Positions 6,038-32,683 of a stretch of 38,081 nucleotides of DNA are shown piece after piece. Each line of letters begins with the position of its first letter. Positions within the stretch are counted from its first letter, which is position 1. Source of the stretch: Chloroflexota bacterium (GTDB lineage Bacteria > Chloroflexota > Dehalococcoidia > DSTF01 > RBG-16-68-14); the NCBI GenBank assembly GCA_022570885.1, contig JACZYW010000003.1, positions 1 through 38,081 of the forward strand, in the 5' to 3' direction. The position numbers were made by a program, and so were the translations under genes. Under the pieces are notes generated by a model. That model made no database searches and was not told where the DNA came from. It worked only from the letters and a program-made list of their open reading frames with translations.

Positions 6038-6057
6038 CTATGCATATTGTGCAGGAT

Positions 6058-6102: not shown

Positions 6103-6116
6103 ATGGGGCCCGGCTC

Positions 6117-6700: not shown

Positions 6701-6855
6701 CTCCGATTCCTGCACCTCGTACCACACCGGCTGCAAGAAAAGATGCTGATGTTCTCACCGCCCGCCGGTATCGTCGACCAGCACCGCCGTATGGTTCCCG
6801 CATGGCTACGGCAGGTGAAAAGCCCTAGACGGCAGGCCATTCGGCCCCCAATGAC

Positions 6856-6873
6856 GGGCCGTTCGGCCCTTTT
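6856..6873 (+). terminator. short intrinsic-terminator-like hairpin upstream of the operon
   Basis: GGGCC-gttc-GGCCC followed by TTTT. Confidence 0.45.
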
Positions 6874-6876
6874 AGC

Positions 6877-6902
6877 CTTAACTTAGCAATTACTAGATTA
6901 AG
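6877..6902. promoter_or_regulatory. AT-rich imperfect palindrome; candidate operator/promoter of the operon
   Basis: CTTAACTTAG-CAATTA-CTAGATTAAG (arms match 8/10), ending 17 nt before the first ATG. Confidence 0.5.
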
Positions 6903-6919
6903 CATCATGGATATCGGTG

Positions 6920-8506
6920 ATGGCTGACGCGACGTTTGACGCTGTCATTATCGGTGCCGGGCACAACGGGATGGCGCTGGGCACCTACTTGGCGAGATGC
7001 GGCTGGGACGTGGCGATCTTTGAGAAGCGCGCCGAAGAGGGCGGGGGCCTCTGCACGGAGGAGCTCACCCGGCCCGGTTTTCTCCACAACGTTCACTGCA
7101 ACTATCACACGCTGGTTGGCGTCTGTCCTGTGTACGACGACCTAGGGCTCTACGACCATGGCCTGGAATACGTTCAGCCACCGGTGCAGATGGGCAGCGT
7201 GTTCCGCGATGGCACCGCTCTCACGGTGCATACGGATATCGACAAGACCTGTGCCTCCTTCGCCCGCTTCTCGGAAAAGGATGCGGAGACGTTCCGGCGG
7301 CTCCATGATGAGGTGAAGGGGTACCTTGACCTCATCTTAAGTACCTTGATGTACTCCCCGCCTATCCCGCTCGTCGATATTACGAAGGCGATGGTCGTTT
7401 GGCAGGTGGCAGACAAGTCGGAGTTCCTCAGTGTTCATCTGCGTAACAAGACGATTAGCGAGTTCTTGGACGAGCACTTCGAGAACGACAAAATCAAGGC
7501 GCAGCTCGCGTTCCAGGCGGCTATCTCCGGCTACGCCACGGACCGCAGAGGGCTGGCCGTCTCCTTCCCGCTGCTGGTGGGCAAGATGGACAACTGGCAC
7601 GTCTGCGTCGGCGGCTCCCACCAGCTAGCCCATTCATTGTGGGAGGCTTTTAGCCACGCTGGCGGAAGCATCTTCCTAAACACGCCGGTCGCCGGCATAT
7701 TGACCGAGAACGGGCGCAGCACCGGCGTCCGTCTCTACGACGGGAGCGAAGTGCGAGCGCGGCACGTCGTTGCCAGCACGATCGACCTCGAGCAGACCTT
7801 CCTGAAAATGCTTCCTCGCGAAAAGCTCGATCCGAAGCTGATCAGTCAGATCGAAAACTCCTCCCACATGGATTGGTCCTACTATAGCGTCCACCTCGCC
7901 ATGCGGGAGCCACCGCAGTATGCGGCGGCCGAGTTCGATCCGGATGTGCAGAACGCGTGGGTGCTGAACGTGGGATACGAGTCGCTAGAGGAGCTGAATG
8001 CAGACTGGCGGGCGGTGCGAGCTGGTAAGCTTCCCGATCCTCGGCCGAACTGCGCCGTCAACACACTCTTCGACCCCTCGGATGCGCCGGATGGCTTTTA
8101 CACCGGCCTCATGCGCCAGTTCGCTCCTATCGATATCGGCCGGGGCGGCATCGAGGCCTGGGATGAGATGGCCAATTCGTACGGCGAGCGTTGCATCGAT
8201 GCTTGGGCGGACTACGCACCTAACATTCGAGATGCCGTGATCGAATGGGTACCCTATACTCCTCTCGATATCTCGCGACGCATGGTGAACATGGTGCGTG
8301 GCGATTGGATGGGTGGCCTCGTCGATCTGGACAATCTGCTAACGGAGCGTCCCTGCCCAGAGCTCTCTCAGTACCGCACGCCGTTCAAAGGTCTCTACCT
8401 GTGCGGCGCCACCCAGCATCCGCACGGATTTATCACCTTTGCGCCGGGCTACAACGCCTTGCAAGTGATCGCGGAAGACTACGGGTTGGACCGATGGTGG
8501 CAGTAG
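6920..8506 (+). CDS. FAD-dependent oxidoreductase, phytoene dehydrogenase-related (COG1233), paralog 1
   Basis: IIGAGHNG dinucleotide motif, EKR..EGG, GGSHQLAHSL, YRTPFKGLYLCGATQHPHG; alternative start GTG 6917. Confidence 0.88.
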   Translation: MADATFDAVIIGAGHNGMALGTYLARCGWDVAIFEKRAEEGGGLCTEELTRPGFLHNVHCNYHTLVGVCPVYDDLGLYDHGLEYVQPPVQMGSVFRDGTALTVHTDIDKTCASFARFSEKDAETFRRLHDEVKGYLDLILSTLMYSPPIPLVDITKAMVVWQVADKSEFLSVHLRNKTISEFLDEHFENDKIKAQLAFQAAISGYATDRRGLAVSFPLLVGKMDNWHVCVGGSHQLAHSLWEAFSHAGGSIFLNTPVAGILTENGRSTGVRLYDGSEVRARHVVASTIDLEQTFLKMLPREKLDPKLISQIENSSHMDWSYYSVHLAMREPPQYAAAEFDPDVQNAWVLNVGYESLEELNADWRAVRAGKLPDPRPNCAVNTLFDPSDAPDGFYTGLMRQFAPIDIGRGGIEAWDEMANSYGERCIDAWADYAPNIRDAVIEWVPYTPLDISRRMVNMVRGDWMGGLVDLDNLLTERPCPELSQYRTPFKGLYLCGATQHPHGFITFAPGYNALQVIAEDYGLDRWWQ

Positions 8507-9033
8507 TGAGCGCCGCTTCAGCGAACGAGGTCTTGCCCGTCACCCTCGCCGCGGGGGACGAGGCCAGCGGCCTGGCCCGCATCATCTGCCAGTACCTGGA
8601 ACAGCTCTTCGCCGATTCGCAGGAGAAACGAGACGAGGCCGCGAGGCTACGCGGCCATCTCGGTCTGCGTGCTCGCGAGGGCGATGTTGCCATCACCGTT
8701 GCTTTTACCGAGGACGGCGTCGCCGTAGAGGAGGGGCTGCGCGAACCGGATGCTGTCGTGAACGGAGAAGTTGAGTTCCTGATGCACGTGCTGGCCGGAC
8801 GGGCGAATCCCGCCTGGGAAGTCCTTAGAGGTACCGTGGCGTTCCAGCCACGGCCCCTCCGTCCGCTGTTTGGCTATCAGGCCTACCGCGTGATGCGTCT
8901 GCCGCACGTGCATCTATGGAGCGGGCTGCCACGCCCACCGGTTGGTCTCCTGGTGGGCACTGCAGTCTTGGTGAGTGCCGTAGTGCTGGCGCGGCGGCGG
9001 CGAGTGCGAGCTTCGGGTGGTGACGATGGCTGA
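8506..9033 (+). CDS. SCP2-like lipid-binding domain protein with C-terminal membrane anchor
   Basis: ITVAF...VAVEEGLREPDAVVNG...LAGRANPAWEVLRGTV resembles SCP2; C-terminal hydrophobic helix followed by RRRR. The real start is probably GTG 8506 (or ATG 8494), not 8245. Confidence 0.6.
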   Translation: MSAASANEVLPVTLAAGDEASGLARIICQYLEQLFADSQEKRDEAARLRGHLGLRAREGDVAITVAFTEDGVAVEEGLREPDAVVNGEVEFLMHVLAGRANPAWEVLRGTVAFQPRPLRPLFGYQAYRVMRLPHVHLWSGLPRPPVGLLVGTAVLVSAVVLARRRRVRASGGDDG

Positions 9034-10639
9034 CGCAACCTTCGACGCGGTGATCATCGGCGCGGGACACAACGGGCTCTGCCTCGCGGCGTACTTGGCC
9101 AAGGCAGGCCTCTCCGTGGGCATCTTCGAACGCCGGCACGAGGACGGCGGCGGCGCCAACACGGAAGAGGCGACCGTCCCTGGGTTCCACCACAATCTCC
9201 ACGGCCAGTACATGGAGTTCATCGACTACATGCCCGTGTATCACGACTTCGAGCTTGAAAAGTTGGGCGCACGCATGATCTACCCGGAAGTGCAGCTCGG
9301 CATTACCTTCGCGGACGGCCGCCCACCCATCGTCATCTACCGGCCAGGCGCCGATCTCGACGAGAAGACCCGCAAGAGCATCGCCCACTACTCCAAGAAC
9401 GACGCTGATGTCTGGCTGGAGCTGAAACGCAAGGTCATGGAGCGTGACCGAACGATAGCCGCCACGCTCTACAGTCCGGCGGAAGCTGAGGACGATGAGC
9501 AAACGCCGGCGGCCATGATGAGCGCTGGGCTGTCCCTTTGGACAGACCTGGGCCTGGCGCCGAACGACATCGGCAAGGCGCCCAAGGTGCTTATCGACCG
9601 GCTCTTCGAATCGACGGAGATGCGTACCCTCCTCTACCGGCAATGCATCGAATGGGGTGCTAACGTGCACGCCGGAAACGGCTACGGATTCCTAATCTCC
9701 GTGCTCTGGCTGAGCGCCATCCACAAGATGTCGGTGGGCGGCACGCATACCCTGGCTCACGCCATGGCGAACGCCTGCATGAAGCAAGGCGTGTCCATTC
9801 GCTTTACCAAGCCGGTCGTGAAGATTGTGATGAAGAACGGGCGGGCGTCCGGCATCCAACTCAAGGACGGAACGGAGATCGAGGCAAGAAAGCTCGTCGC
9901 CTCCAACGTGGACCCAAGGCAGACGTTCGTCGATTTCATCGGCGAGGAGAACCTGACGTCCTTCCGGCGGGAGCGGCTGGCCCACTGGCGCTTCGGGCCG
10001 GAGCATGTGCTGGGCGTGCCATCGTTCGCGCTCCGCGAGGCGCCGAAGTACAAGTCGGCGAGGTGGAACCCGGACATCGACCGCTGCTTCTACACGCTGG
10101 TGGGCTTCGAGGATGAAGAGCAGATGTCAAACTACATTCTCCAGGCGTATGGCGGCGCGATACCGGATCGGCCGGGCGCCGGTACCTGGGTGAACTCTCT
10201 CTGGGACCCGACGCAGGCGCCGCCCGGTAAGCACGCGATGAACGGGTGGTTCTTCTTCCCGCGCGCCTCCTGTCTGTCGCCCGAGGAGTGGGACGAGGTG
10301 CGCGCCACATACAACGATCGCTTCCTCCAACTGTGGGGCGAATACGCGCCCAATATGACCCGCGAGAATGTGATCGCCGACCGGCTCTACACCGCATTCG
10401 ACATCGAGAAGAAGATCGGAATGCCAGAGGGAGACTTCTCCCACGGCCGCTCCGGCAGCGGCATGGGCGGCATCGTCGGCGGCTACCAGTACCGGACGGA
10501 GATCCCCGGCCTCTACCTCTGCGGCGCCTCGGCTGGCGGGGGCGGGATCAGCGCCGCACCCGGTTACAGCGCGTTCAAGGTGATCTGCAAGGATCTCAAG
10601 CTGCCCAAGGTCTGGCAGCAAGAGTATCGGGACTACTAA
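9026..10639 (+). CDS. FAD-dependent oxidoreductase, phytoene dehydrogenase-related (COG1233), paralog 2
   Basis: Same MADATFDAVIIGAGHNG start as paralog 1; GGTHTLAHAM; DPTQAPPGKH; YRTEIPGLYLCGAS. Confidence 0.88.
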   Translation: MADATFDAVIIGAGHNGLCLAAYLAKAGLSVGIFERRHEDGGGANTEEATVPGFHHNLHGQYMEFIDYMPVYHDFELEKLGARMIYPEVQLGITFADGRPPIVIYRPGADLDEKTRKSIAHYSKNDADVWLELKRKVMERDRTIAATLYSPAEAEDDEQTPAAMMSAGLSLWTDLGLAPNDIGKAPKVLIDRLFESTEMRTLLYRQCIEWGANVHAGNGYGFLISVLWLSAIHKMSVGGTHTLAHAMANACMKQGVSIRFTKPVVKIVMKNGRASGIQLKDGTEIEARKLVASNVDPRQTFVDFIGEENLTSFRRERLAHWRFGPEHVLGVPSFALREAPKYKSARWNPDIDRCFYTLVGFEDEEQMSNYILQAYGGAIPDRPGAGTWVNSLWDPTQAPPGKHAMNGWFFFPRASCLSPEEWDEVRATYNDRFLQLWGEYAPNMTRENVIADRLYTAFDIEKKIGMPEGDFSHGRSGSGMGGIVGGYQYRTEIPGLYLCGASAGGGGISAAPGYSAFKVICKDLKLPKVWQQEYRDY

Positions 10640-10649
10640 GGAGCACGTC

Positions 10650-11141
10650 ATGCCCGCCATCTACACAGGACCGTGGTACGACAGCATGAAGGACATCCTC
10701 AACAGCAGCGACGCCGTGACGAAGAACGCGCCACGTGGTGTCTGGCACATCTTGGCCGAGATCCGAGGTGATGGTGCGTCGCCGTACCTCTCGGAAGACG
10801 AGGTGAAGCGCTTCGCCATCGTCCTCAACGACGGCAAGTGCGAAAGCTACGCGGAGCTGACGGAGCCGCCTCCACGCAAGGACTTCCAGTTCATTCTCGA
10901 GCTACCTGCTGTCCTCTTCGAGCGAATCGTCGCCAACCAAGCTGACCCCGTGGAGGCTGGCCTGAAAGGCGCCATCAAGATCATCGGGGACATGCGGGTG
11001 ATGATCCAAAACGCGGAGCTGGTGAAGATCATCTCGGAGATCTACCAGCAGGAGGTCGAGACAGAGTGGCCGAAGGGCATGCCACCGTATCCGGCCTTAG
11101 CGACGGCTCAGGCCGGGGAGTCGATCGGGGGCAGCGCATGA
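10650..11141 (+). CDS. SCP2 sterol-binding-domain-like protein
   Basis: FERIVANQADPVEAGLKGAIKIIGDM matches the SCP2 C-terminal DPxxAxxxGxxKxxGD pattern; AAGGAG RBS. Confidence 0.7.
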   Translation: MPAIYTGPWYDSMKDILNSSDAVTKNAPRGVWHILAEIRGDGASPYLSEDEVKRFAIVLNDGKCESYAELTEPPPRKDFQFILELPAVLFERIVANQADPVEAGLKGAIKIIGDMRVMIQNAELVKIISEIYQQEVETEWPKGMPPYPALATAQAGESIGGSA

Positions 11142-13906
11142 CGTACGCAGGCCTACAGCTCCACGCCCTCGGCACGAAGGAAGCGGGAGAACGCGCTTCA
11201 TACGGTTCATGGCAGGACATCTACCGCGAGAAGTGGACCTGGGACCGGGTGGTGAAGGGAACCTGCAACCGGGCGGACTGCATCTCCGCCTGCTCGCTCA
11301 ACCTGTTCGTGAAAGACGGCATCGTCTGGCGGGAGGAGCAGAACCCGATCTTCGAGCAGACCAACGCCTCGGTCCCGGACTTTAACCCGCGCGGCTGCCA
11401 GAAGGGGATTTGCTACAGCGATCTGATGTACGACCCCTCTCGCATCAAGTACCCGCTGCGCCGCGTGGGCGAACGGGGCTCCGGCAAGTGGGAGCGCATT
11501 TCCTGGGACGAGGCGCTGACCGAGATCGCTGACAAGATCATCGATGTCTGTCTGGAAGACGGGCCGGAGAGCGTCGTCTACGACTTCGGCACGACGAACA
11601 TTGACTTTGGCCCGGGCACTCCGGCTGAGCAGCATCTCACCCGGCTCATAGGCACCACCACGCTGGACGAGTGGGCGGGCGTGGGCGACCTGCCCATGGG
11701 CGCCATCCAGACCTGGGGCCTCTTCAACGCTGACGGCACCTCCGACGACTGGTTCAACGCTGAGACGATCCTCGTTTGGTTGGGCAACCCCGTCTATACT
11801 CGCGTGCCGGACGTCCACTTCATGTGGGAGGCGCGCTACCACGGCACCAAGGTCGTCACCATCGCGCCGGACTACAACGCTACCGCCGTCCATTCCGATC
11901 TCTGGCTGAACCCGCGTGTCGGCACCGACGCCGCACTCGCCCTCGCCATGTGCCAGGTCATCGTAGAGGAAGGGCTGCTCAAGGAGCAGTACGTGCAGGA
12001 ACAGACAGACCTGCCGTTTCTGCTGCGCGAGGACACCCGCCGCTTCCTGCGCCAGTGCGATCTGGTCGAAGGCGGCAAAGAGGATGTCTTCTACGTCTGG
12101 GATCGGGCGTCGAACGAGCCGCGGGAGGCGCCGGGAACGGCCGGACAGGAGGAAGCGTTGATCGCCCTCGGCGATCTCGACCCGGCGCTCGAGGGTAAGT
12201 TCATCGTGAAGCTGGCCGATGGTCAACAGGTATCTGTGCGCCCTGTGTTTGCGCTCCTGCGGGAGCGGCTACGCGACTACACGCCAGAGCTGGCGGCGCA
12301 GATCACCGGCGTCAGCGCCAGCGTGATCCGTCGCCTGGCGCATCAGGTGGCCGAGAGCCGGGCGGTCATGGTCTTCTGCTCCTGGGGCTCCTGTAAGCAC
12401 TACCACATGGACCTCGTCCAGCGCTCGATTATCCTGCTGCTGGCGCTGACAGGCAACACCGGCAAGCGAGGCGCCGGCATGCGTATCGGCGCGTGGTGGA
12501 ACATGTCGCTCAGCTACGACCGCTCCATCGGCTCCCTGGCTGGGGGCGGCGAGCGGGCCAAGGTCCGGGACCTTGAGAAGATGATGAAGGCGCTGATGCG
12601 CGCCAATAGCTCTATGACGCCAGTAATGGTCTGGCTCTACGCGCATGACGAGGGGTATGCCAAGCTCGTCGATACGCCGGCCTACCACGATCCCGACCTC
12701 CCCCGCCCCATAAGCGAGTACATGCGCGAGGCGTTGGACAAGAACTGGATGCCGCTCTATCCGAAGGAAGGCAAAACGCCCCGAGTCTTCCTGTACACCG
12801 GCATGAACCCGCTCCGCCGCTGGCCCGCGCCGGACGTCATCCGCGAGAATCTCTGGGCGAAGCTGGAGCTGATCGTCACCTGGGAGTTCCGTATGTCCAG
12901 CTCGGCTATGTTCTCGGACATCATCCTGCCGGCAGCCGGCTGGCACGAGAAGTCCGGCGTGAAATTCTGCCAGAGCTATGTGCCGTACATCTGCGTGGGC
13001 GAGAAAGCGGTGGAGCCGCTCTACGAGTCGAAGAACGAGTTCGACATTATGGCCAACCTGGCAGCCACGCTCCAGAGGCGCGCGCAGGAGCGGGAGGAAG
13101 GCGTGTATACCGACGCCTTCGGAAACGAGCATGACCTGCGTGAGATCGCTCGCCTCTGGAGCTATGACGGCGAGTTCGGCGAGGGCGATGCGGAGAAGGC
13201 GTTGGAAGTCGCATTCGAGCTCTCGGAGCCGGTCGGCGACGCCTCATGGGCGGATGCGGCGCGCGCCGGCGCGGTACGGGTCAAAAGCACCGGCGGCTAC
13301 GGCCCTATCACTGCCATCACCAGCGATATGCGTGAAGACGAGACCGTCTACCCCTTCGCCTGGTTCGTCGAGGAGAAGGAGCCGTGGCCCACGCTCACCG
13401 GCCGCCAGCAGTTCTACATCGACCACCCGTGGTTCCTAGAGGTAGGCGAGGAGTTGCCGCTGCACAAGGAGCCGCCCCCTGCCGGTGGCAACTACCCGCT
13501 GCGGATGACCGGCGGGCACACCCGTTGGAGCATCCACTCCATCTGGCGCGCCAACCGCACGCTCCTCCGTCTTCAGCGCGGTGAGCCGGTGATGTACGTC
13601 AGCCCGCAGGACGCCGAAGCGCGCGGTCTCAAAGATCATGATCTGGCCCGGGTCCGGAATGATGTGGGCGGGTTCAAGGTTCGCGTCAAGCTGGCGGCTA
13701 GCATTCAGCCTGGGCAGGTGGTGATGTACCACGCCTGGGAGCCGTACCAGTTCGAAGACTGGATAGGCCAGCAAGCGGTCAACGCTTCGCCGTTGAAGCC
13801 GCTTCACCTGGTGGGCGATTATGTCCAGCTCCAGTACCGCTTCGCCCTGGCCCAGCCCAGCCACATCTCACGGGCGATGACGGTGGAGCTAGAGAAGGCA
13901 GACTGA
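11138..13906 (+). CDS. DMSO reductase family type II molybdoenzyme alpha subunit 1 (EbdA/S25dA-like); no Tat signal
   Basis: WQDIYREKWTWD; FS0 GTCNRADCISAC...PRGCQKG; Mo-ligand region WAGVGDLP; TLTGRQQFYIDH; GHTRWSIHS; ATGA coupling to the upstream gene. Confidence 0.93.
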   Translation: MTYAGLQLHALGTKEAGERASYGSWQDIYREKWTWDRVVKGTCNRADCISACSLNLFVKDGIVWREEQNPIFEQTNASVPDFNPRGCQKGICYSDLMYDPSRIKYPLRRVGERGSGKWERISWDEALTEIADKIIDVCLEDGPESVVYDFGTTNIDFGPGTPAEQHLTRLIGTTTLDEWAGVGDLPMGAIQTWGLFNADGTSDDWFNAETILVWLGNPVYTRVPDVHFMWEARYHGTKVVTIAPDYNATAVHSDLWLNPRVGTDAALALAMCQVIVEEGLLKEQYVQEQTDLPFLLREDTRRFLRQCDLVEGGKEDVFYVWDRASNEPREAPGTAGQEEALIALGDLDPALEGKFIVKLADGQQVSVRPVFALLRERLRDYTPELAAQITGVSASVIRRLAHQVAESRAVMVFCSWGSCKHYHMDLVQRSIILLLALTGNTGKRGAGMRIGAWWNMSLSYDRSIGSLAGGGERAKVRDLEKMMKALMRANSSMTPVMVWLYAHDEGYAKLVDTPAYHDPDLPRPISEYMREALDKNWMPLYPKEGKTPRVFLYTGMNPLRRWPAPDVIRENLWAKLELIVTWEFRMSSSAMFSDIILPAAGWHEKSGVKFCQSYVPYICVGEKAVEPLYESKNEFDIMANLAATLQRRAQEREEGVYTDAFGNEHDLREIARLWSYDGEFGEGDAEKALEVAFELSEPVGDASWADAARAGAVRVKSTGGYGPITAITSDMREDETVYPFAWFVEEKEPWPTLTGRQQFYIDHPWFLEVGEELPLHKEPPPAGGNYPLRMTGGHTRWSIHSIWRANRTLLRLQRGEPVMYVSPQDAEARGLKDHDLARVRNDVGGFKVRVKLAASIQPGQVVMYHAWEPYQFEDWIGQQAVNASPLKPLHLVGDYVQLQYRFALAQPSHISRAMTVELEKAD

Positions 13907-13922
13907 GGAAAGGAGCGAAGCC

Positions 13923-14573
13923 ATGCTCGTAAAACGCGTCGAGGTGAACCGTGAGGACCTGTTGGATCCAACCAATGAGGCGTGGCGGCGGACCCGGGGA
14001 AGCAAGACGGTACTTTCGCCAATACCGTTGGCGATGCAGCCCGCGGAGTATGTGCGCGTCTCCTGGGAAGACCGCCCCTATGGCGTGGTGACCAGCATGA
14101 GAGTGACCGCCTTTCACAATGGTCAGGAGATCTTCTTTCGCCTTGTGTGGGACGACGCCACTGTGGACAAGCAGATCGCGGACATCGATCAGTTTGTGGA
14201 TGCCGCGGCCGTGCTATTCCCTGTGGTGCCCGATGCGCCCCTCATCGGCATGGGGGCCGAAGGCAAGCCCGTCAACGCCTGGCTCTGGCGCGCTGACTGG
14301 GAGCAACCGAAGAACGTGGTGGCGGAAGGGATGGGCACAACCAAACGTCGAGAGGATCCTGCCCTCGTCTCGAAAGCCAAGCACCAGCGTGGGCGTTGGG
14401 TGGTGGTCATCTCGCGTTCGTTGAACGGAAAGGACTCGCCGGCTGGAACGGTGAGATTGGAACCGGGCGCCACATCCAAGGTCGCGTTCGCCATCTGGCA
14501 GGGCTCCAACCAAGAGCGAGCTGGCATCAAGGCCTTCTCGCCGGCCTGGCAGGAGCTGGAGATCGAAGCGTAG
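13923..14573 (+). CDS. type II DMSO reductase heme b (gamma) subunit, EbdC-like
   Basis: IFFRLVWDD, FVDAAAVLFP, LIGMG (Met ligand), VNAWLWRA, AFAIWQGSNQERAGIK (Lys ligand). Confidence 0.9.
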   Translation: MLVKRVEVNREDLLDPTNEAWRRTRGSKTVLSPIPLAMQPAEYVRVSWEDRPYGVVTSMRVTAFHNGQEIFFRLVWDDATVDKQIADIDQFVDAAAVLFPVVPDAPLIGMGAEGKPVNAWLWRADWEQPKNVVAEGMGTTKRREDPALVSKAKHQRGRWVVVISRSLNGKDSPAGTVRLEPGATSKVAFAIWQGSNQERAGIKAFSPAWQELEIEA

Positions 14574-14590
14574 CAGAAAGCAGGGCTCTC

Positions 14591-18106: not shown

Positions 18107-18108
18107 GC

Positions 18109-20940: not shown

Positions 20941-20954
20941 CAAAGGAGGCAATC

Positions 20955-21998: not shown

Positions 21999-22064
21999 GG
22001 CCGGCGCAATGACGCTTGCCAGACCTTCGGGCCGGGCGCAGGCCTCGACGTCGAAGGAGGCGAG

Positions 22065-25064: not shown

Positions 25065-26497
25065 TGGCGCTTCTCGACCTCGGCAGCGAGGCTCCGGCCC
25101 GCCGCCTGCCGCTCCGCTTCGACGAGCTGGAGCGGACGACGGCTGAGGCGCTGGCCGACGCCGACCGGCCGCTGGGCACGCTAGGCCACCTGGCGCTGTG
25201 GGCCAACCTGGGCACAGGCCTCTACCTGCTGGTCGTCGGCGCCTGGCTGGTGCCGGCGCTCAGCATCCCCCAGGCGATCGTCGCCACCGTCATCGGCGCC
25301 TCGCTGGGCTCAGCGATGGTGGCCGCGGCGGTGCGGTTGGGGGCGGCCGAGAACCGGCCGGGCGTGGCACTCCACCGAGATGCTCTGGGCAAATCCGGCG
25401 CGAACGTCTACGGCGTCCTCGCAGGCTTTCGACACCTGGCCTGGGGTGCGATCCAGCTCGCCATCGCCGCCGAGGTAGCCGCCGTCGTGATGGCCCGCCA
25501 GGGCATGGGCGGCGGCCGGCCGCTCTGGGCGGCGATCTTCGGAGCGCTGGTGCTCCTCATGGTGCTCGCCGGGCCGAGCACGGTGATCCGTCGCTGGCTG
25601 GTGCCGAGCGTGGCGCTCACGCTGCTCATCGCCGCCGTCTTCGCCTACTCGGCCTGGTCCGACTTCGGCATTTCGGCGATGCTCAAGCGCGAGCCGACGG
25701 GCGGCTGGCCGGGCATGACCGGCGCCGTCGACATCGTCGCTGCCGTCGCTCTCATCTCGCTTCCCGTCGCCACAGACCTTGGACGGCTGGGGAGCGCGCG
25801 GCGGGCAGGCCGCGCCGCCTTCGCCGGACTGGCGGGCATGACGATATGGTTCGTCCTCCTGGGCGTACTCTTCGTGCCGGCTGTCGATGGCCGCGACCTG
25901 GCGGGCTTCCTGCTCGCGACGCCGGCCGGCGCTCTGGTACTGATACTGCTGGTCGTACTCGAACTGGACGGCGCGTTCGTCAGCCTCTACGCGCTGTCTT
26001 CGACAGTGCGCGGCTGGGCGCCGAAGGCGAACGCCGCCCTGCCGGTGGCAGTCGGGGGTGCGGCGGTCTTCGCGCTGGGTGCGGCGCTCCTCGACCCGTT
26101 CAACTTTGGCGACGCGCTCCTGCTGCTGGGCGCTGCCTTCGCGCCACTGCTCGGCGTGCTGCTGGCAGTCAGGCTGGTGCGTCGCTGGTGGTTCCAGGTG
26201 ACGGGGGAAACTCGGCTGCGGCCTGACGGACGGTTGGAGATCATCAGCGGGAGTGTATCGCTGCCAGTACTGGGTGGCGCCTTTGCCTGGGCGATGGGCT
26301 TTCTGCTCTACAACTGGGCGGCGCCGCTAGAGGTGCCTGGATGGACAGCAGCGATGTCGGTCCTCTTTCAAGATGTCCTGCGGCTCCCCTTCCCGGCGGG
26401 CGTGCCTGGCCTGAGCGCTACCGCTCTGGGCTTCGCTGTCGCGTTCGTGGTGGCTGGGGGGTCAACGGCGCTTGGGGCGCGGCGGCATGCCGCCTGA
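25064..26497 (+). CDS. NCS1-family (cytosine/purine, CytX-like) permease
   Basis: About 12 hydrophobic segments; HLALWANLG, LG..GANVYGVL...RHLAWGAIQ, LPVATDLGR, LLGAAFAPLLGVLLA; TGATG coupling. Confidence 0.75.
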   Translation: MALLDLGSEAPARRLPLRFDELERTTAEALADADRPLGTLGHLALWANLGTGLYLLVVGAWLVPALSIPQAIVATVIGASLGSAMVAAAVRLGAAENRPGVALHRDALGKSGANVYGVLAGFRHLAWGAIQLAIAAEVAAVVMARQGMGGGRPLWAAIFGALVLLMVLAGPSTVIRRWLVPSVALTLLIAAVFAYSAWSDFGISAMLKREPTGGWPGMTGAVDIVAAVALISLPVATDLGRLGSARRAGRAAFAGLAGMTIWFVLLGVLFVPAVDGRDLAGFLLATPAGALVLILLVVLELDGAFVSLYALSSTVRGWAPKANAALPVAVGGAAVFALGAALLDPFNFGDALLLLGAAFAPLLGVLLAVRLVRRWWFQVTGETRLRPDGRLEIISGSVSLPVLGGAFAWAMGFLLYNWAAPLEVPGWTAAMSVLFQDVLRLPFPAGVPGLSATALGFAVAFVVAGGSTALGARRHAA

Positions 26498-26513
26498 GGC
26501 TGTGGGAAACGCG

Positions 26514-28265
26514 ATGTTCAACAGCAACGTACAATCAATGGCGCCAGAGAAACCGGACGGTAGCCGCGTCTTGGTCATCGCCGCCGTGATGGCAGCACTC
26601 TTCGTATCGGCCATCAGTCAGACGGTGGTAACGACAGCGCTGCCGCGCATGATCGGCGATCTGGGCGGGCTGAGCCTCTATAGCTGGGTGCTCACGTCAT
26701 CGATGCTCGCCGCTACCGTGGCCATGCCTCTGGTGGGCAAGCTCTCCGATCTCTACGGACGCAAGCCGTTCCTGATGGGTGGTATCGCCCTCTTCATGGT
26801 CGCCTCGGCCTTTACTGGGGCCTCACAGAACATGTTGCAGCTCATCGGTTTCCGGGCCGTGCAGGGGCTGGCAGGCGGGACGATCATGGCCAGCGCCTTC
26901 GCCACCATCGGTGATCTCTTCCCGCCGGCGGAACGCGGACGGTACTTCGGACTCTTCACCGGCGTCTTCGGTCTCGCCAGCGTCGCCGGGCCGCTCCTCG
27001 GCGGTTTCGTCACCGACCACTGGGGCTGGCGCTGGGTCTTCTACATAAACGTGCCCTTTGGCCTGCTGGCGTTGGCGGTGCTGACAAAAGGGATGCGCTG
27101 GCAGCGCCCAGACGAGTCGGAGCGTCGGGCGGTGCCTATCGATTGGATGGGGATGGTCGCCCTCCTCTGGGCCGTGATCCCTCTGCTGCTGGCGTTGGCC
27201 TGGGCGGGCGACCGCTTCCCATGGGTCTCCGCCCCGATCGGAGCGTTGCTGGGGATAGCAGGACTGGGTTTCTTCGCCTTCCTCGCGATCGAGCGTGGAG
27301 CAGCGGACCCGGTGCTCCCGCTCTCCCTCTTTCGCGTGCGGACGTTCGTGGTGGCATCCGCCGCCGCCTTCCTGACGGGCATCGGGTTGTTCGGAGCGCT
27401 CAGCTACATGCCGCTGTTCATCCAGGGCGTGCTGGGCGCTTCGGCGACGAACTCCGGCCTGGTCAATATGCCGCTGATGCTCGGCTTGACCGCCGCCAGC
27501 CTTGCCTCCGGCATGGTGGCCAGCCGGACAGGCCGCTATCGATGGATGGTCATCGCCGGTGGCTTTGTGCTGGTGGGCGGGATGGCCATCATGGCTACGC
27601 TGGACGAGCAGGCCAGCCTGGCCCTGCCCATCGTGGGGATGATCGTGGTGGGCCTGGGACTGGGGCTCAGCATGCCGCTGCTCGGCCTCGCCGTCCAGAA
27701 CGCCCTAGACGACCGTTTGCTCGGCGTGGCGACAGCATCGAGTCAGTTCTTCCGCCAGATCGGCGGCACGCTGGGTATCGCCCTCTTCGGCACCATCATC
27801 ACGACGCAGATCCAGGGCGGCCTTATTGGACGGCTGCCAGAGGAGGTGACCAGCGTTGCGCCACCAGAAGCGCTCCGCCAACTGGAGGAGCCGCGCATCC
27901 TGCTCAGCCCCCAGGCGCTGGAGCAGCTACGCGGGACGTTCGCAGCCTTCGGCGACACTGGGCCCGCGCTCTACGATCAGACGCTCGCTGCGATGCGCGG
28001 TGTCCTGGCGGACGGCCTGCAAGAAGTCTTCCTCGTAGGGCTCTTGGTGGCGGTCCTCGCTTTCGCCGTTAGCGTCTTCCTTCCGGAGCTGCCGCTGCGA
28101 ACGCGAGCGTCTGGAGAGCAAGAGCGGGCGTCTGCGCCGGCCGACTTGATCTGGGACGACGCATCGTGGATACGCGAGGGACGCACCCTCCACGAGGTGC
28201 CAGTCGATGAAGCACCGCCACACGCGGCAGCGGTCCCCCAAGCCGGAGAGGCAGGTGACAGCTAA
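26514..28265 (+). CDS. MFS DHA2 (14-TMS, EmrB/QacA-like) efflux transporter
   Basis: QTVVTTALP, GKLSDLYGRK, FRAVQGLAGG, GPLLGG, WRWVFYINVP, FFRQIGG. Start uncertain (26487, 26514 or 26538). Confidence 0.9.
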   Translation: MFNSNVQSMAPEKPDGSRVLVIAAVMAALFVSAISQTVVTTALPRMIGDLGGLSLYSWVLTSSMLAATVAMPLVGKLSDLYGRKPFLMGGIALFMVASAFTGASQNMLQLIGFRAVQGLAGGTIMASAFATIGDLFPPAERGRYFGLFTGVFGLASVAGPLLGGFVTDHWGWRWVFYINVPFGLLALAVLTKGMRWQRPDESERRAVPIDWMGMVALLWAVIPLLLALAWAGDRFPWVSAPIGALLGIAGLGFFAFLAIERGAADPVLPLSLFRVRTFVVASAAAFLTGIGLFGALSYMPLFIQGVLGASATNSGLVNMPLMLGLTAASLASGMVASRTGRYRWMVIAGGFVLVGGMAIMATLDEQASLALPIVGMIVVGLGLGLSMPLLGLAVQNALDDRLLGVATASSQFFRQIGGTLGIALFGTIITTQIQGGLIGRLPEEVTSVAPPEALRQLEEPRILLSPQALEQLRGTFAAFGDTGPALYDQTLAAMRGVLADGLQEVFLVGLLVAVLAFAVSVFLPELPLRTRASGEQERASAPADLIWDDASWIREGRTLHEVPVDEAPPHAAAVPQAGEAGDS

Positions 28266-29260
28266 TGCGAGCGAACTTGGTTGCGATACAGGTGCGGGCG
28301 AGTATCGAAGATTACGCAAGTGGCGATACGTTTCGCCGCCGCATGGAAGGACTCATGGAGCAGGCGGCGACGAAGGTAGATTTCAACCTGCCAACCATCG
28401 TCTGCTTCCCGGAGACGGTCGGGCTATGGCTGAGCTTCGTTCCCGAGATCTATGACAACATCCGAGACTGTACGACGATTCAGCAGGCGATCGTACGGGG
28501 CATTCCACCCAATTGGAGACGCTTCCTTCGAGCTTGCTGGCGCTTCCGCACGATCGGCGTCACCACGATCTTCCTTGAGACGGCGCTGGACGCTGAGGCG
28601 ATCTACCGGAAGACTTTTTCGGATCTTGCCAAGCGCTATGGCTGCTACCTGCAAGCGGGCACGATCTACATTCCTACGATCGAAGACGAGCCAGTGAAGG
28701 GCCGTCATGTCCTCGGTCGAAAGGTGTACAACATCGCATATCTGTTCAACCCGAAGGGTGTTATCCTACAGCGTGTGCCCAAGCGCAACCTATCGCCGCC
28801 TCTCGAGCGACGCTTCCATTTCTCCCCCGGCGACCGCTTGGACCTCCACCCCGTGAATACCGCGCTCGGCCGCATGGGCATCCTTATCTGCTACGACGGG
28901 TTCCACGAATCGCTTGTGGAGCATTACGACAGTCTCGGCGTGGAGATCATCCTGAATCCTTCTCACAGCGATCGCAACTGGGAGCAGCCCGCTGGCTTCA
29001 ACCACGCCATCACCGTAGGCGAGGCCTGGGAGCAACATGGCGTTGGAGCGATGATCCAGGGGAGACCGAACATTCAGTACGCGATCGTACCCATGATGGC
29101 GGGCCGCATCCTCGACCTGGAAGGTCAGGGATGCTCCCACATCGCCGGTAACACGGGGGAGGTAGGAGCGCCGGCCGCTCGCTTCCTGCTGGCCCGGGCT
29201 ACTTCGCACACCGGCGAGGAGATCGTGGCGGCCACCGTTGAGCTACCAGAGGGCTGCTAG
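28265..29260 (+). CDS. carbon-nitrogen hydrolase (nitrilase superfamily)
   Basis: Catalytic triad FPE, VPKRNL, ICYD; YNIAYLFNPKG; TAATG coupling. Confidence 0.85.
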   Translation: MRANLVAIQVRASIEDYASGDTFRRRMEGLMEQAATKVDFNLPTIVCFPETVGLWLSFVPEIYDNIRDCTTIQQAIVRGIPPNWRRFLRACWRFRTIGVTTIFLETALDAEAIYRKTFSDLAKRYGCYLQAGTIYIPTIEDEPVKGRHVLGRKVYNIAYLFNPKGVILQRVPKRNLSPPLERRFHFSPGDRLDLHPVNTALGRMGILICYDGFHESLVEHYDSLGVEIILNPSHSDRNWEQPAGFNHAITVGEAWEQHGVGAMIQGRPNIQYAIVPMMAGRILDLEGQGCSHIAGNTGEVGAPAARFLLARATSHTGEEIVAATVELPEGC

Positions 29261-29299
29261 GAGGAAGAGGCACCGGCAGCATCACAGGAGGGCGCAGCA

Positions 29300-30091
29300 A
29301 TGGAGCAAGACATTATCTCGTCTGGCTACGACGCAGTGTATGGGAGCACGGCCAAAAGCCCTACGTTGCGCCGGTTGTGGCACAAGTATGCGGAAGGCCT
29401 CGACTTCCCAGAGGAGTTCAGCCACATCAGTCTTACGACGCTGCCGGAGCTCCAACGAATATCCGCCGAACTTCGGCTTAGCGCTGACGAGACGTTCGTC
29501 GACCTCGGCTGCGGCATGGCCGGGCCAGCGCTATGGGTGGCACGCGAGACGGGCGCGCAACTCATCGGTGTAGACCTCTCGCGTGTCGCGACGGAGCAGG
29601 CAAGCGCCCGCGCGGCCGAGCTTGGGCTGGCTGAGCAGGCGCAGTTCGTCGTTGGTTCGTTCACTGATACTGGCCTGGAGGCCAATGTAGCCGCGGGGCT
29701 CATGAGCGAGGACGCCATCCAGTACGCGCCCGACAAGCGGGCCGCTATGGTTGAGGCCGCGCGTATCCTGCGCCGTGGCGGCCGGTTCGTCTTCACTGTC
29801 TACGAACTCGATCCGGATCGCGCCGCCGGCCTCCCGATCCTCGGGGCTGATCTAGTCGATGACTATCGACCGCTGTTGGCGGATGCGGGATTTCGCGTGG
29901 AGACCTACGAGGAGACTCCGGGCTGGCCGGAGCCGATGACGACGACGTACTCGGCTCTTCTCGACGAAAAGGAGGCGCTGACCGAAGAGATGGGCGAGGC
30001 CGCCGCCGGCGCGCTAATCGTTGAGCTTTCGCTGACGCTCGAGCATCGGCCGTACCGGCGGCGTGTGCTAATCGTGGCGACGAGGGAGTGA
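29300..30091 (+). CDS. class I SAM-dependent methyltransferase
   Basis: VDLGCGMAGP, GVDLS, EAARILRRGGRFVF; AGGAGG RBS. Confidence 0.88.
   Translation: MEQDIISSGYDAVYGSTAKSPTLRRLWHKYAEGLDFPEEFSHISLTTLPELQRISAELRLSADETFVDLGCGMAGPALWVARETGAQLIGVDLSRVATEQASARAAELGLAEQAQFVVGSFTDTGLEANVAAGLMSEDAIQYAPDKRAAMVEAARILRRGGRFVFTVYELDPDRAAGLPILGADLVDDYRPLLADAGFRVETYEETPGWPEPMTTTYSALLDEKEALTEEMGEAAAGALIVELSLTLEHRPYRRRVLIVATRE

Positions 30092-31381: not shown

Positions 31382-32683
<1,302 letters not shown>

What the first reader, a model, noticed from the sequence alone, without database searches (positions are those of the whole stretch)
6920..30091. Candidate new anaerobic hydroxylation pathway: three EBDH-like Mo enzymes with lipid carriers and desaturase-like flavoproteins in one gene run
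Seen: 17 co-directional genes, many with overlapping stop/start codons. Order: FAD-OR, SCP2-TM, FAD-OR, SCP2, alpha1, gamma, beta1, delta, mobB-fmdE, mobA, alpha2, beta2, alpha3, NCS1, MFS, nitrilase, MTase. Known: type II DMSO-reductase enzymes with a soluble Met/Lys heme-b gamma subunit include the O2-independent C-H hydroxylases (ethylbenzene, p-cymene and steroid C25 dehydrogenases), normally encoded as a single alpha-beta-gamma-delta set. Inference: a 3:2:1:1 set co-expressed with SCP2 proteins and COG1233 flavoenzymes points to sequential oxidation of a hydrophobic substrate (steroid, terpenoid/carotenoid or N-containing aromatic). I do not recognise this arrangement from characterised systems.
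Basis: partly seen in the sequence, partly recalled or inferred. Interest (0 to 1): 0.9.

Follow-up and report, generated by a model that had tools for sequence, protein, structure and literature searches.

The report
Oxygen-free lipid-oxidising operon in sediment Chloroflexota
A marine-sediment Chloroflexota genome carries one operon that joins a limonene-dehydrogenase-like flavoenzyme, two lipid-carrier proteins and three ethylbenzene-dehydrogenase-like molybdenum enzymes, most likely to oxidise greasy isoprenoid molecules with water instead of oxygen, a known chemistry in a new host and layout.

Summary
There are 17 co-directional genes at 6917-30091. With my chosen starts, 10 of 16 junctions overlap and the largest gap is 66 nt. 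Every family call was confirmed.

- **Flavoproteins.** The two "desaturase-like" proteins carry the histidine motif of the CtmAB limonene dehydrogenase / delta-24 steroid desaturase family. In Sterolibacterium that family already works with an EBDH-family molybdenum hydroxylase.
- **Subunit ratios.** Several alpha subunits sharing fewer beta/gamma subunits and one chaperone is also known from Sterolibacterium.
- **Alpha subunits.** Alpha2 and alpha3 are much nearer to EbdA than to reductases. Alpha1 belongs to a separate clade whose placement is unresolved.

What is new:
- The host is a marine-sediment Chloroflexota.
- Both enzyme systems are fused into one operon.
- A four-gene flavoprotein + SCP2 module is conserved across phyla, with one SCP2 membrane-tethered.
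- Alpha1 and alpha2 lack TAT signals.
- Alpha3 has a TAT signal and is paired with a lineage-specific NCS1-like permease.
- Sister genomes carry 5-15 alpha paralogs.
- Among 40 relatives, all 9 with the flavoprotein also have alphas.

The substrate is unknown. An isoprenoid lipid is inferred, not shown. I rate it a new variant of a known kind.

The parts
6917..8506 (+). Flavoprotein subunit 1 (529 aa), CtmA/B / delta-24 desaturase-like; motif GFLHNVHC
   Evidence: Pfam DAO and Amino_oxidase. Best NCBIfam match is CrtO, 243 bits, below its cut-off of 1000. The His motif was read and compared with the motif printed in PMC11061730. Relatives are 60-97% identical.
8494..9033 (+). SCP2-fold protein with a C-terminal membrane helix (179 aa)
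   Evidence: Pfam SCP2 22.6 bits. AlphaFold pLDDT 83.4 with helix 150-174. Foldseek top hits are SCP2 and UbiJ-SCP2. The start is inferred.
9017..10639 (+). Flavoprotein subunit 2 (540 aa), 35% identical to subunit 1; motif GFHHNLHG
10650..11141 (+). Soluble SCP2-fold protein (163 aa)
   Evidence: Pfam SCP2 21.6 bits. AlphaFold pLDDT 71.9. Foldseek hits 1wfr and 2cx7 with TM 0.66-0.81.
11138..13906 (+). Mo-bisPGD alpha1 (922 aa), no TAT signal, separate clade
13923..14573 (+). Heme-b gamma subunit (216 aa), EB_dh family; Met110 and Lys203 align with EbdC M108 and K201
   Evidence: Pfam EB_dh 108 bits. TIGR03477 180.9 bits, above its cut-off of 169.85. Alignment to 2ivf_C.
14591..15661 (+). Fe-S beta1 (356 aa)
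   Evidence: Pfam Fer4_11. It is 58% identical to beta2. The start is inferred.
15661..16338 (+). Delta assembly chaperone (225 aa)
   Evidence: Pfam Nitrate_red_del 62 bits.
16335..17450 (+). MobB-FmdE-zinc ribbon fusion (371 aa)
   Evidence: Pfam MobB, FmdE and zf-dskA_traR. It is kept in the four sister operons.
17447..18106 (+). MobA (219 aa)
   Evidence: Pfam NTP_transf_3. It is kept in only 1 of 4 sister operons.
18103..20940 (+). Mo-bisPGD alpha2 (945 aa), EbdA-like, no TAT signal
20955..21998 (+). Fe-S beta2 (347 aa)
   Evidence: Pfam Fer4_11. TIGR03478 478.5 bits against a cut-off of 480.7.
22065..25064 (+). Mo-bisPGD alpha3 (999 aa), EbdA-like, TAT motif TRRSFLKG followed by the conserved LTQLGC
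25064..26497 (+). NCS1/CytX-like 477-aa membrane protein, start overlapping the alpha3 stop
   Evidence: NCBIfam TIGR02358 98.6 bits, below its cut-off. It follows alpha3 in five other genomes. The family is narrow.
26472..28265 (+). MFS transporter (597 aa); not part of the conserved operon
   Evidence: Pfam MFS_1 179.7 bits. It is absent from the four sister operons.
28265..29260 (+). CN_hydrolase (nitrilase superfamily) protein (331 aa)
   Evidence: Pfam 46.7 bits. It is kept after the permease in 4 of 4 sister operons.
29300..30091 (+). SAM-dependent methyltransferase (263 aa); membership in the unit is uncertain
   Evidence: Pfam Methyltransf_11. A 68% homolog lies beside another alpha in G003.

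Best explanation
This is an operon for oxygen-independent oxidation of hydrophobic substrates, most likely isoprenoid-type (sterol or terpenoid side chains or similar lipids), in a marine-sediment Chloroflexota.

**Inferred mechanism**
1. The membrane-tethered SCP2 and the soluble SCP2 take the lipid from the membrane and present it to a heteromeric flavoenzyme made of the two CtmAB / delta-24-desaturase-like subunits.
2. That flavoenzyme dehydrogenates or hydroxylates an allylic carbon.
3. Three Mo-bisPGD catalytic subunits then add water-derived hydroxyl groups to activated C-H positions. Alpha1 and alpha2 act in the cytoplasm. Alpha3 is TAT-exported and perhaps lipid-anchored.
4. Electrons leave through the shared Fe-S beta and heme-b gamma subunits.
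5. Delta, MobB-FmdE and MobA mature the cofactor.

**What is shown:** gene content, family membership, conserved synteny and genome-level co-occurrence.

**What is inferred:** the chemistry, the order of steps, the substrate, and the roles of the permease and the CN-hydrolase.
For: **Flavoproteins**
- Both carry the histidine of the covalent-flavin motif printed for delta-24-SD and CtmAB: GFLHNVHC and GFHHNLHG, against G-F-L/R-X-N/S-T/L-H-A.
- They are 35% identical to each other. CtmA/B are 27% identical and the delta-24-SD subunits 26%.
- A strict form of the motif is found in 70 of 88 family ORFs. Most of the rest show G-Y variants with the His, or have mis-called starts.
- The paper names Acidimicrobiales and Deltaproteobacteria among the nearest relatives of delta-24-SD. 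Those are among the taxa that hold this module.

**SCP2 proteins**
- Both folds were confirmed.
- 56 of 64 related loci have an SCP2-type hit beside the flavoprotein genes.
- In the loci inspected, each flavoprotein gene is followed by its own SCP2 gene in either gene order.

**Alpha subunits**
- Alpha2 phmmer bits: alpha3 1031, EbdA 814, alpha1 703, PcrA 505, ClrA 479, NarG 186-190.
- Alpha3 scores 792 bits to EbdA and 499 to PcrA.
- The Asp and Lys equivalent to EbdA D223 and K450 are kept in all three alphas.
- The gamma subunit keeps the Met and Lys.

**Context in other genomes**
- Neighbours of the module elsewhere include acyl-CoA dehydrogenase, SCPx-type thiolase, CoA-transferase, ADH, ALDH, enoyl-CoA hydratase, CoA ligase and GMC oxidoreductase.
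- The alpha-rich island of a sister MAG adds 5 acyl-CoA dehydrogenases, 4 CoA-transferases, a carboxyltransferase, a biotin carboxylase-type domain and an AOR.
- Relatives with a match carry 5-15 alpha-like matches per genome.
- 9 of 9 relatives with the flavoprotein hold alphas, against 3 of 31 without it.
- Precedents for both couplings are in PMC11061730 and PMC6016249.
Against: - No direct comparison with CtmA/B, delta-24-SD, S25DH, S26DH, CmdA or AhyA sequences was possible. Family placement rests on a motif, a Pfam/COG class, and bit scores to EbdA and PcrA.
- Alpha1 is equidistant from PcrA (595 bits) and EbdA (586 bits). Its relation to ClrA is unresolved in the tree.
- The Asp/Lys pair is also present in ClrA, so it does not separate hydroxylases from reductases.
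- Alpha1 and alpha2 lack the TAT signal. S25DH alpha1 carries one and S25DH is proposed to be periplasmic.
- The window itself holds no beta-oxidation, alcohol dehydrogenase or aldehyde dehydrogenase genes.
- The conserved NCS1-like permease and the CN-hydrolase are not explained by a lipid substrate.
- The genome has a COX1 gene, so the host need not be anaerobic.
- The last residue of the flavin motif is Cys or Gly, not Ala.
Confidence: 0.6

Rival explanations
1. The cluster is biosynthetic rather than catabolic. It would modify the cell's own isoprenoid lipids or pigments (carotenoid, quinone or hopanoid-type) without oxygen. The flavoproteins would act like CrtO-type ketolases or desaturases, and the Mo enzymes would act as water-dependent hydroxylases.
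For: - The best NCBIfam match of both flavoproteins is beta-carotene ketolase CrtO, at 243 and 160 bits over the full length.
- UbiJ-SCP2 of the ubiquinone pathway is among the top fold hits of the membrane-tethered SCP2.
- A methyltransferase closes the gene run.
- An ABC1/UbiB-type kinase lies downstream.
Against: - The CrtO scores are far below the cut-off of 1000.
- Neighbours in other lineages are CoA-dependent catabolic enzymes.
- 5-15 alpha paralogs and a patchy presence within one family (7 of 15 genomes) fit an accessory catabolic island better than a housekeeping lipid pathway.
- No carotenoid or quinone synthesis genes were seen in the window.
Confidence: 0.12
2. The true substrate is a nitrogen-containing compound, such as an alkylated N-heterocycle, an amide or a nitrile. 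The NCS1-like permease would import it. The Mo enzymes and flavoenzyme would oxidise its alkyl part, and the CN-hydrolase would cleave a C-N bond.
For: - The permease gene overlaps the alpha3 stop. It follows alpha3 in four sister MAGs and in a more distant one, at 38% identity.
- The CN-hydrolase follows the permease in 4 of 4 sister operons.
- Read from the sequence, the CN-hydrolase appears to have a Glu, Lys, Cys triad. The motif itself is recalled, not tested.
Against: - The permease is only a distant NCS1 relative, at 98.6 bits against a cut-off of 309.85, with no Pfam hit.
- Its family is narrow, so no substrate can be read from it.
- The two SCP2 proteins and the CtmAB-like enzyme point to a lipid.
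- The CN-hydrolase is absent next to alpha3 in G005.
Confidence: 0.1
3. Alpha1 with gamma, beta1 and delta is a respiratory or detoxifying oxyanion reductase (chlorate, perchlorate, selenate or nitrate type). It would be merely co-located with the other genes.
For: - Alpha1 scores marginally higher to perchlorate reductase PcrA (595 bits) than to EbdA (586 bits).
- Its clade is not resolved from ClrA in the tree.
Against: - The window has no TAT signal on alpha1, no chlorite dismutase and no membrane anchor gene.
- The PcrA gate residues F164 and Y165 align with Glu and Trp in alpha1. The alignment is; the role of these residues is recalled.
- Alpha1 is closer to alpha2 (703 bits) than alpha2 is to ClrA or PcrA (479-505 bits).
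- Alpha1-clade genes sit directly after the flavoprotein/SCP2 module in Chloroflexota and Myxococcota, and directly before it in one Microthrixaceae locus.
- One relative is named 'steroid C-25 hydroxylase alpha subunit' by JGI's automatic annotation.
Confidence: 0.06

Closest known systems
Anaerobic sterol side-chain oxidation of Sterolibacterium denitrificans (S25DH1-4, S26DH1-3, delta-24 steroid desaturase)
   Same: - It combines a two-subunit CtmAB-like flavoenzyme bearing the His motif with EBDH-family Mo hydroxylases.
- Many alpha paralogs share beta/gamma subunits and one chaperone.
- The gamma-then-beta gene order also occurs there.

Sources: PMC11061730 and PMC6016249.
   Different: - The host here is a Chloroflexota, not a betaproteobacterium.
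- Flavoenzyme, SCP2 and Mo enzyme genes form one operon.
- Two SCP2 genes are integral to the module.
- Alpha1 and alpha2 lack TAT signals.
- No direct sequence comparison could be made.
- Whether the Sterolibacterium genes are clustered, or have SCP2 partners, was not seen. Supplements are closed.
Limonene dehydrogenase CtmAB of Castellaniella defragrans
   Same: - Two adjacent COG1233-type flavoprotein genes with low mutual identity (27% there, 35% here).
- The same flavin-binding His motif.
- Oxidation of an allylic methyl group without oxygen.

Sources: PMC4109377 passages; PMC11061730.
   Different: - The ctm cluster has a ferredoxin and a ferredoxin reductase (ctmEF) and two hypothetical genes (ctmCD). 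No ferredoxin pair is present here.
- No Mo enzyme is reported in the passages read on the ctm cluster.
Ethylbenzene dehydrogenase EbdABCD of Aromatoleum aromaticum (PDB 2IVF)
   Same: - Alpha2 and alpha3 align end to end with EbdA, at 814 and 792 bits.
- The Asp223 and Lys450 equivalents are kept.
- The gamma subunit aligns with EbdC and keeps the Met and Lys.

   Different: - These are not orthologs: the NF042978 scores of 861, 830 and 629 bits fall far below the cut-off of 2000.
- The His192 equivalent is Pro or Thr.
- There are three alphas for one gamma.
- Two of the alphas have no export signal.
[quoted passage not shown]
   Same: It is an uncharacterised EBDH-like enzyme from an anaerobe. 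Many metagenomic sequences from sediments and aquifers group with it according to PMC7803848. His192 is replaced by Pro there, as in alpha2 and alpha3.
   Different: - In my alignment Pro at that position is also found in ClrA and NarG, so it is not diagnostic.
- No Ahy sequence was available to compare.
SCP2 proteins UbiJ/UbiT of ubiquinone biosynthesis (works-like analogy only)
   Same: An SCP2 domain holds an isoprenoid lipid for soluble flavin hydroxylases. UbiJ-SCP2 is among the top fold hits. The role of UbiJ is recalled.
   Different: It belongs to a different pathway and has different enzyme partners. Sequence identity is 14-16%.

Membership tests
Type II DMSO-reductase family alpha subunit (TIGR03479) | Molybdopterin + Molydop_binding domains and a family HMM score at or above the cut-off | tested here: met
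   All three alphas have both Pfam domains. TIGR03479 scores are 997.0 for alpha3 (above the cut-off of 984.75), and 970.6 for alpha1 and 940.3 for alpha2 (both just below it).
Type II DMSO-reductase family alpha subunit (TIGR03479) | Asp ligand of Mo (EbdA D223, PcrA D170) and an N-terminal FS0 cluster motif | tested here: met
   The Asp is kept in all three alphas. Alpha2 and alpha3 keep the His and Cys ligands. Alpha1 has Cys-x4-Cys-x3-Cys, with Cys in place of the His.
EBDH/S25DH-type C-H hydroxylase subclade | Closer to characterised hydroxylases than to oxyanion reductases | tested here: inconclusive
   The test is met for alpha2 (EbdA 814 bits against PcrA 505) and alpha3 (792 against 499). 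It is not resolved for alpha1 (586 against 595). Only EbdA was available as a hydroxylase reference.
EBDH/S25DH-type C-H hydroxylase subclade | TAT signal on alpha (periplasmic enzyme) | tested here: not met
   Only alpha3 has TRRSFLKG. Alpha1 and alpha2 have none. Apart from two hits in over-extended upstream frames, their Chloroflexota orthologs also have none.
EBDH/S25DH-type C-H hydroxylase subclade | Soluble heme-b gamma with Met/Lys ligation | tested here: met
   Met110 and Lys203 align with EbdC M108 and K201. The ligand identities are recalled from the EBDH structure paper. TIGR03477 scores 180.9 bits, above its cut-off.
EBDH/S25DH-type C-H hydroxylase subclade | Water-dependent hydroxylation of a C-H bond | not testable with these tools
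   This needs an enzyme assay.
Ethylbenzene dehydrogenase proper (NF042978 equivalog) | Score at or above 2000 bits | tested here: not met
   Scores are 861.1, 830.3 and 628.6 bits.
CtmAB / delta-24 steroid desaturase flavoenzymes | Two adjacent paralogous COG1233-type subunits of low mutual identity | tested here: met
   The two proteins are 529 and 540 aa and 35% identical. The pair is conserved in related loci.
CtmAB / delta-24 steroid desaturase flavoenzymes | N-terminal motif G-F-L/R-X-N/S-T/L-H-A with the flavinylated His | tested here: met
   The motifs are GFLHNVHC and GFHHNLHG. The His is present, but the final Ala is replaced, and position 3 is His in subunit 2. The motif is found in 70 of 88 family ORFs under a strict pattern.
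CtmAB / delta-24 steroid desaturase flavoenzymes | Direct sequence similarity to CtmA/B or the delta-24-SD subunits | not tested
PDB has only distant CrtD and CrtI hits, at 39.7 and 31.1 bits.
CtmAB / delta-24 steroid desaturase flavoenzymes | Covalently bound FMN | not testable with these tools
   This needs the protein.
SCP2 sterol-carrier fold | SCP2 alpha/beta fold with a lipid tunnel | tested here: met
   Pfam scores are marginal, at 22.6 and 21.6 bits against 21.3. Foldseek top hits are all SCP2 proteins, with E-values of 7.5e-9 and 4.1e-7. Lipid binding was not tested.
NCS1 / CytX transporters | Family HMM score at or above the cut-off | tested here: not met
   TIGR02358 scores 98.6 bits against 309.85, and TIGR00800 scores 34.2 against 353.1. 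There is no Pfam hit. It is a distant relative only.
CN_hydrolase (nitrilase superfamily) | Pfam PF00795 above its cut-off | tested here: met
   The score is 46.7 bits against 23.2. The Glu-Lys-Cys triad was read by eye; the motif is recalled.

The most novel reading that the evidence does not exclude
A family of marine-sediment Chloroflexota carries a modular, largely cytoplasmic toolbox for oxidising C-H bonds without oxygen.

Its core would be a previously undescribed four-component enzyme: two CtmAB-like flavoprotein subunits, each with its own SCP2 subunit, one of them membrane-tethered. This core extracts membrane or sedimentary isoprenoid lipids. It then hands them to a radiating set of 5-15 EBDH-like molybdenum hydroxylases, including a new alpha1 clade that travels with the module across phyla.

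If so, these bacteria would be a missing sink for sterols, hopanoids, phytol-derived and other lipid biomarkers in anoxic sediments.
Probability: 0.3. Interest if true: 0.8.

Novelty: new variant of a known kind. Interest (0 to 1): 0.62.

Why it matters
Water-dependent hydroxylation of unactivated C-H bonds is known from only a handful of cultured Proteobacteria.

This operon, and the 5-15 alpha paralogs found in relatives that hold such genes, suggest that the same chemistry is widespread in uncultured Chloroflexota of marine sediments. The operon DNA recurs near-identically in metagenomes of several studies.

It gives concrete, testable candidates for two open questions: what subsurface Dehalococcoidia-type bacteria eat, and how sterol and isoprenoid biomarkers are degraded without oxygen.

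It also points to two features not yet studied:
- SCP2 proteins as built-in partners of CtmAB-type flavoenzymes.
- EBDH-like enzymes that lack an export signal.

Finally, it offers new regio- and stereoselective hydroxylases for biocatalysis.

Tried and rejected
**Steps that led nowhere**
- Rfam scan of the whole window: 0 matches, so no Moco riboswitch in the 1,062-nt gap upstream.
- Promoter and terminator scans at both ends of the run: nothing above the shuffled controls.
- Pfam on ORFs after the Myxococcota alpha1-like gene (L065) and before the Microthrixaceae one (L036): 8 of 9 had no family and one was DUF2804. Most were probably spurious high-GC ORFs.
- Protein atlas for flavoprotein 1: only generic names.
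- tblastn of flavoprotein 1 on plasmids: only 30-33% relatives.
- APH-family kinases: 3 lie in the sister island. They were considered as 25-hydroxysteroid-kinase analogues (PMC8449060). The family rings in 13 of 14 control genomes and 6 times in G000, so it says nothing.
- EbdA His192, Asp223 and Lys450 as a hydroxylase signature: rejected, because ClrA shows the same Pro/Asp/Lys pattern.

**RNA evidence.** Contigs of three RNA libraries from two studies lie on parts of the operon. Some match with 0 differences, including two that span the gamma-beta1 junction. Contigs cannot show a transcript, and DNA carry-over is possible, so this is a weak hint at most. The parts without cover prove nothing.

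**Literature**
- Search one search was badly designed, because synonyms satisfied min_terms.
- Judged from titles and abstract starts only, searches listed no paper that describes this cluster in Chloroflexota or Dehalococcoidia.
- One search ('steroid C25 dehydrogenase' + SCP2) found 0 papers.
- The library lacks most subscription journals, and supplements were closed. Figs S10 and S11 of PMC11061730 and Fig. S1 of PMC6016249 could bear on family placement.

**Not done.** I did not build the phylogeny against EbdA, CmdA, S25dA, AhyA, PcrA, SerA or DdhA. Only ClrA, a haloarchaeal NarG and a Paracoccus NarG could be fetched as named references. EbdA and PcrA entered only as PDB bit scores and printed alignments.

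Full report
**1. Observation**

The window is the whole contig C87 of a metagenome-assembled genome. The genome is 2,344,064 bases in 238 contigs, 90.83% complete and 4.33% contaminated.

Seventeen ORFs lie on the + strand between 6917 and 30091. I chose starts from the translations. With those starts, 10 of 16 junctions overlap by 1-26 nt, and the remaining gaps are 10-66 nt.

- The two SCP2 calls are marginal in Pfam, at 22.6 and 21.6 bits against a cut-off of 21.3. I folded both proteins on alignments of their orthologs (pLDDT 83.4 and 71.9). The top Foldseek hits of both were SCP2 proteins. The first also has a C-terminal helix at residues 150-174, consistent with a membrane anchor.
- The 'NCS1' ORF has no Pfam hit, and its match to CytX is sub-threshold at 98.6 bits against 309.85.

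**2. The flavoproteins are CtmAB / delta-24-desaturase-like**

A literature search led to PMC11061730; I read its outline, Results and Discussion. That paper describes the delta-24 steroid desaturase of Sterolibacterium denitrificans:
- It has two adjacent subunits that are 26% identical.
- Its nearest characterised relative is limonene dehydrogenase CtmAB.
- Each subunit carries covalent FMN on a His in the motif G-F-L/R-X-N/S-T/L-H-A.
- Its diene product is hydroxylated at C26 by the molybdenum enzyme S26DH2.

The window's two flavoproteins are 35% identical to each other. They carry GFLHNVHC and GFHHNLHG at the corresponding N-terminal position. A strict form of the motif occurs in 70 of 88 family ORFs from related loci. 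Most of the rest show G-Y variants that keep the His, or have mis-called starts.

CtmA and CtmB are COG1233 proteins that are 27% identical (PMC4109377, passages). I could not compare sequences directly. PDB holds only distant CrtD and CrtI relatives.

**3. The molybdenum subunits**

| Query | EbdA (2IVF) | PcrA | E. coli NarG |
|---|---|---|---|
| alpha2 | 814 bits | 505 | 190 |
| alpha3 | 792 | 499 | 243 |
| alpha1 | 586 | 595 | 282 |

On the same phmmer scale, alpha2 scores 1031 to alpha3, 703 to alpha1, 479 to ClrA, 480 to a haloarchaeal NarG and 186 to a Paracoccus NarG. EbdA is therefore nearer to alpha2 than alpha1 is. Alpha1 is in turn nearer to alpha2 than the reductases are.

I built a quick maximum-likelihood tree of 51 rows. 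These were the 3 window alphas, 45 alphas from related loci, and the three named references. ORFs under 780 aa, alignments under 750 residues, and duplicates were left out. The tree gives two fully supported clades:
- An alpha1 clade of 12 rows (Chloroflexota, Myxococcota and one Microthrixaceae).
- An alpha2/alpha3 clade of 36 rows.

Their relation to ClrA is unresolved, and long branches were flagged.

Residue checks:
- The equivalents of EbdA Asp223 and Lys450 are kept in all three alphas. ClrA keeps them too, so they do not discriminate (residue roles from PMC7803848).
- The gamma subunit aligns end to end with EbdC and keeps the Met and Lys at the positions of M108 and K201.

Export signals:
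- Only alpha3 has a TAT motif (TRRSFLKG). It is followed by LTQLGC, which is conserved in 5 of 5 orthologs with a usable N-terminus.
- No real TAT motif was seen in the alpha2-clade rows. One hit lies in an over-extended upstream frame.
- The Chloroflexota alpha1 rows have none either, again with one hit in an over-extended frame.
- The Myxococcota alpha1-like proteins do have one.

**4. Precedent for the 3:2:1:1 set**

S. denitrificans has eight alpha paralogs. Alpha1-4 were produced with beta3gamma3 or beta4gamma4 and one chaperone, SdhD. The gamma3beta3 genes were amplified as one fragment (PMC6016249, passages). So several alphas sharing fewer electron-transfer subunits is known.

**5. Synteny elsewhere**

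A scan of species-representative genomes with flavoprotein 1 gave 64 loci. tblastn with the 17 window proteins showed:
- An SCP2-type hit lies beside the flavoprotein genes in 56 of 64 loci.
- The order is flavoprotein1-SCP2TM-flavoprotein2-SCP2 in Chloroflexota, Myxococcota, Binataceae and Abyssobacteria.
- The order is flavoprotein2-SCP2-flavoprotein1(-SCP2TM) in Actinomycetota.
- A Mo alpha lies within the fetched 10-kb flanks in 20 of 64 loci. Mo-enzyme subunit genes lie there in 10 of 12 Chloroflexota-labelled loci. Many loci are short contigs.

The module is therefore the constant unit, and its link to Mo enzymes is recurrent but not obligatory.

Four sister MAGs keep the whole order from flavoprotein 1 to alpha3, the permease and the CN-hydrolase. 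The differences are these:
- The MFS gene is absent in all four.
- MobA is present in only one.
- Alpha1 is moved elsewhere in one.
- Beta2 is missing in two.

A more distant MAG, whose flavoprotein 1 is 69% identical, keeps alpha3 directly followed by the permease, which is 38% identical there.

**6. Genome-level co-occurrence and paralog expansion**

Among 40 relatives (15 of the same family, 25 of the same order):
- 9 hold flavoprotein 1 (E <= 1e-50).
- 12 hold alpha2-like genes (E <= 1e-150).
- All 9 flavoprotein genomes hold alphas, against 3 of the 31 others.

Within the family, the same 7 of 15 genomes hold both. Kin are not independent, so this is a description and not a test.

Genomes with a match hold 5-15 alpha matches. 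The five genomes reached through loci gave 7, 15, 15, 6 and 7 by my count of near-full-length matches, counting a split alpha1 match as one. G000 itself has only the three alphas on C87.

In one sister MAG, a 120-kb stretch holds at least 12 alphas. I called genes between them with a simple GC3 rule and scanned 62 of them against Pfam. Among them were:
- 5 acyl-CoA dehydrogenases;
- 4 CoA-transferases;
- 2 SCPx-type thiolases;
- a carboxyltransferase and a biotin carboxylase-type domain;
- an aldehyde:ferredoxin oxidoreductase;
- 3 radical SAM, 3 HD and 3 APH-family proteins.

Recurrent neighbours of the module in other phyla are likewise CoA-dependent catabolic enzymes. The window's own flanks hold none of these.

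**7. Habitat and expression**

Half or more of the sampled words of 18103-25064 are held by 11 runs from marine or sediment metagenomes. The 20 runs that hold any part of the stretch come from 10 studies. One of those runs may be the source sample.

Contigs of three RNA libraries lie on parts of the operon, some without a difference. That is not proof of transcription.

G000 has a heme-copper oxidase subunit I gene. 'Oxygen-independent' therefore describes the enzymes, not necessarily the organism. The ctm mutants of C. defragrans also fail on limonene both aerobically and anaerobically.

**8. Reading**

The best-supported explanation is an accessory catabolic operon for oxygen-independent oxidation of hydrophobic, probably isoprenoid, substrates. 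It works like the Sterolibacterium sterol side-chain system, with a CtmAB-type flavoenzyme served by its own SCP2 proteins. I put this at 0.6.

Unexplained features:
- The conserved pairing of the exported alpha3 with a lineage-specific NCS1-like permease. Of the 49 hits with E <= 1e-10, 46 are at least 61% identical; then there is a gap to 29-32%.
- The conserved CN-hydrolase.
- The absence of TAT signals on alpha1 and alpha2.
- The placement of the alpha1 clade.

**9. Novelty**

The chemistry and both couplings are in print, so this is not a new kind of system. The following appear new:
- the host phylum;
- the single-operon fusion;
- the four-gene flavoprotein/SCP2 module conserved across phyla;
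- the alpha1 clade that travels with that module;
- the signal-less alphas;
- the size of the paralog families.

Judged from titles and abstract starts only, no paper listed by my searches describes this cluster in Chloroflexota. The library is incomplete and supplements were closed.

The tools search of earlier findings and complex prediction were closed or unavailable.

Noticed in passing
G000:C232:14471-15106 (locus L002): A second EB_dh-domain ORF (70 bits) lies near a contig end. No further Mo alpha of this type was found in G000 outside C87.
   Followed up: no
window 1611-5854: Two unusual architectures lie upstream of the operon. One is a cNMP-binding + patatin-like phospholipase (601 aa). 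The other is a single 813-aa ORF that combines cNMP-binding, FHA, an ABC ATPase and an ABC-2 permease domain.
   Followed up: no
window 5855-6916: There is a 1,062-nt gap before the operon with no Rfam match and no convincing promoter. It holds only a low-complexity minus-strand ORF at 6403-6840.
   Followed up: partly
window 22140-22205 (alpha3 residues 26-47): After the TAT motif, all five alpha3 orthologs with a usable N-terminus keep the sequence LTQLGC. This may be a lipoprotein-type anchor for an exported enzyme.
   Followed up: partly
window about 11250-11290 (alpha1 N-terminus): The Chloroflexota alpha1 proteins have Cys-x4-Cys-x3-Cys. The alpha1-like proteins of Myxococcota and Microthrixaceae, and the other type II enzymes aligned, have His as the first FS0 ligand.
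   Followed up: partly
G003:C9:100000-218000 (loci L092-L097): This sister-MAG island holds at least 12 EBDH-like alpha genes and several beta genes, interleaved with CoA-dependent catabolic genes, an AOR, and radical SAM and HD-domain proteins.
   Followed up: partly
sister MAG alpha paralogs: Many alpha matches are flagged with one internal TGA, TAG or TAA. These may be match overruns into neighbouring genes, pseudogenes or recoding. They were not examined.
   Followed up: no
G000:C209:6375-7739: A heme-copper oxidase subunit I gene (COX1, 535 bits) is present, so the organism is probably not a strict anaerobe.
   Followed up: no
G000:C4:2-442: A MobA fragment 76% identical to the window's MobA lies at a contig edge. 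It may reflect strain heterogeneity or a second copy.
   Followed up: no
window 31382-37713: The downstream genes are an ABC1/UbiB-type kinase (minus strand), an aldo-keto reductase, a methyltransferase, two alpha/beta hydrolases and a luciferase-like oxidoreductase. Their relation to the operon is unknown.
   Followed up: no
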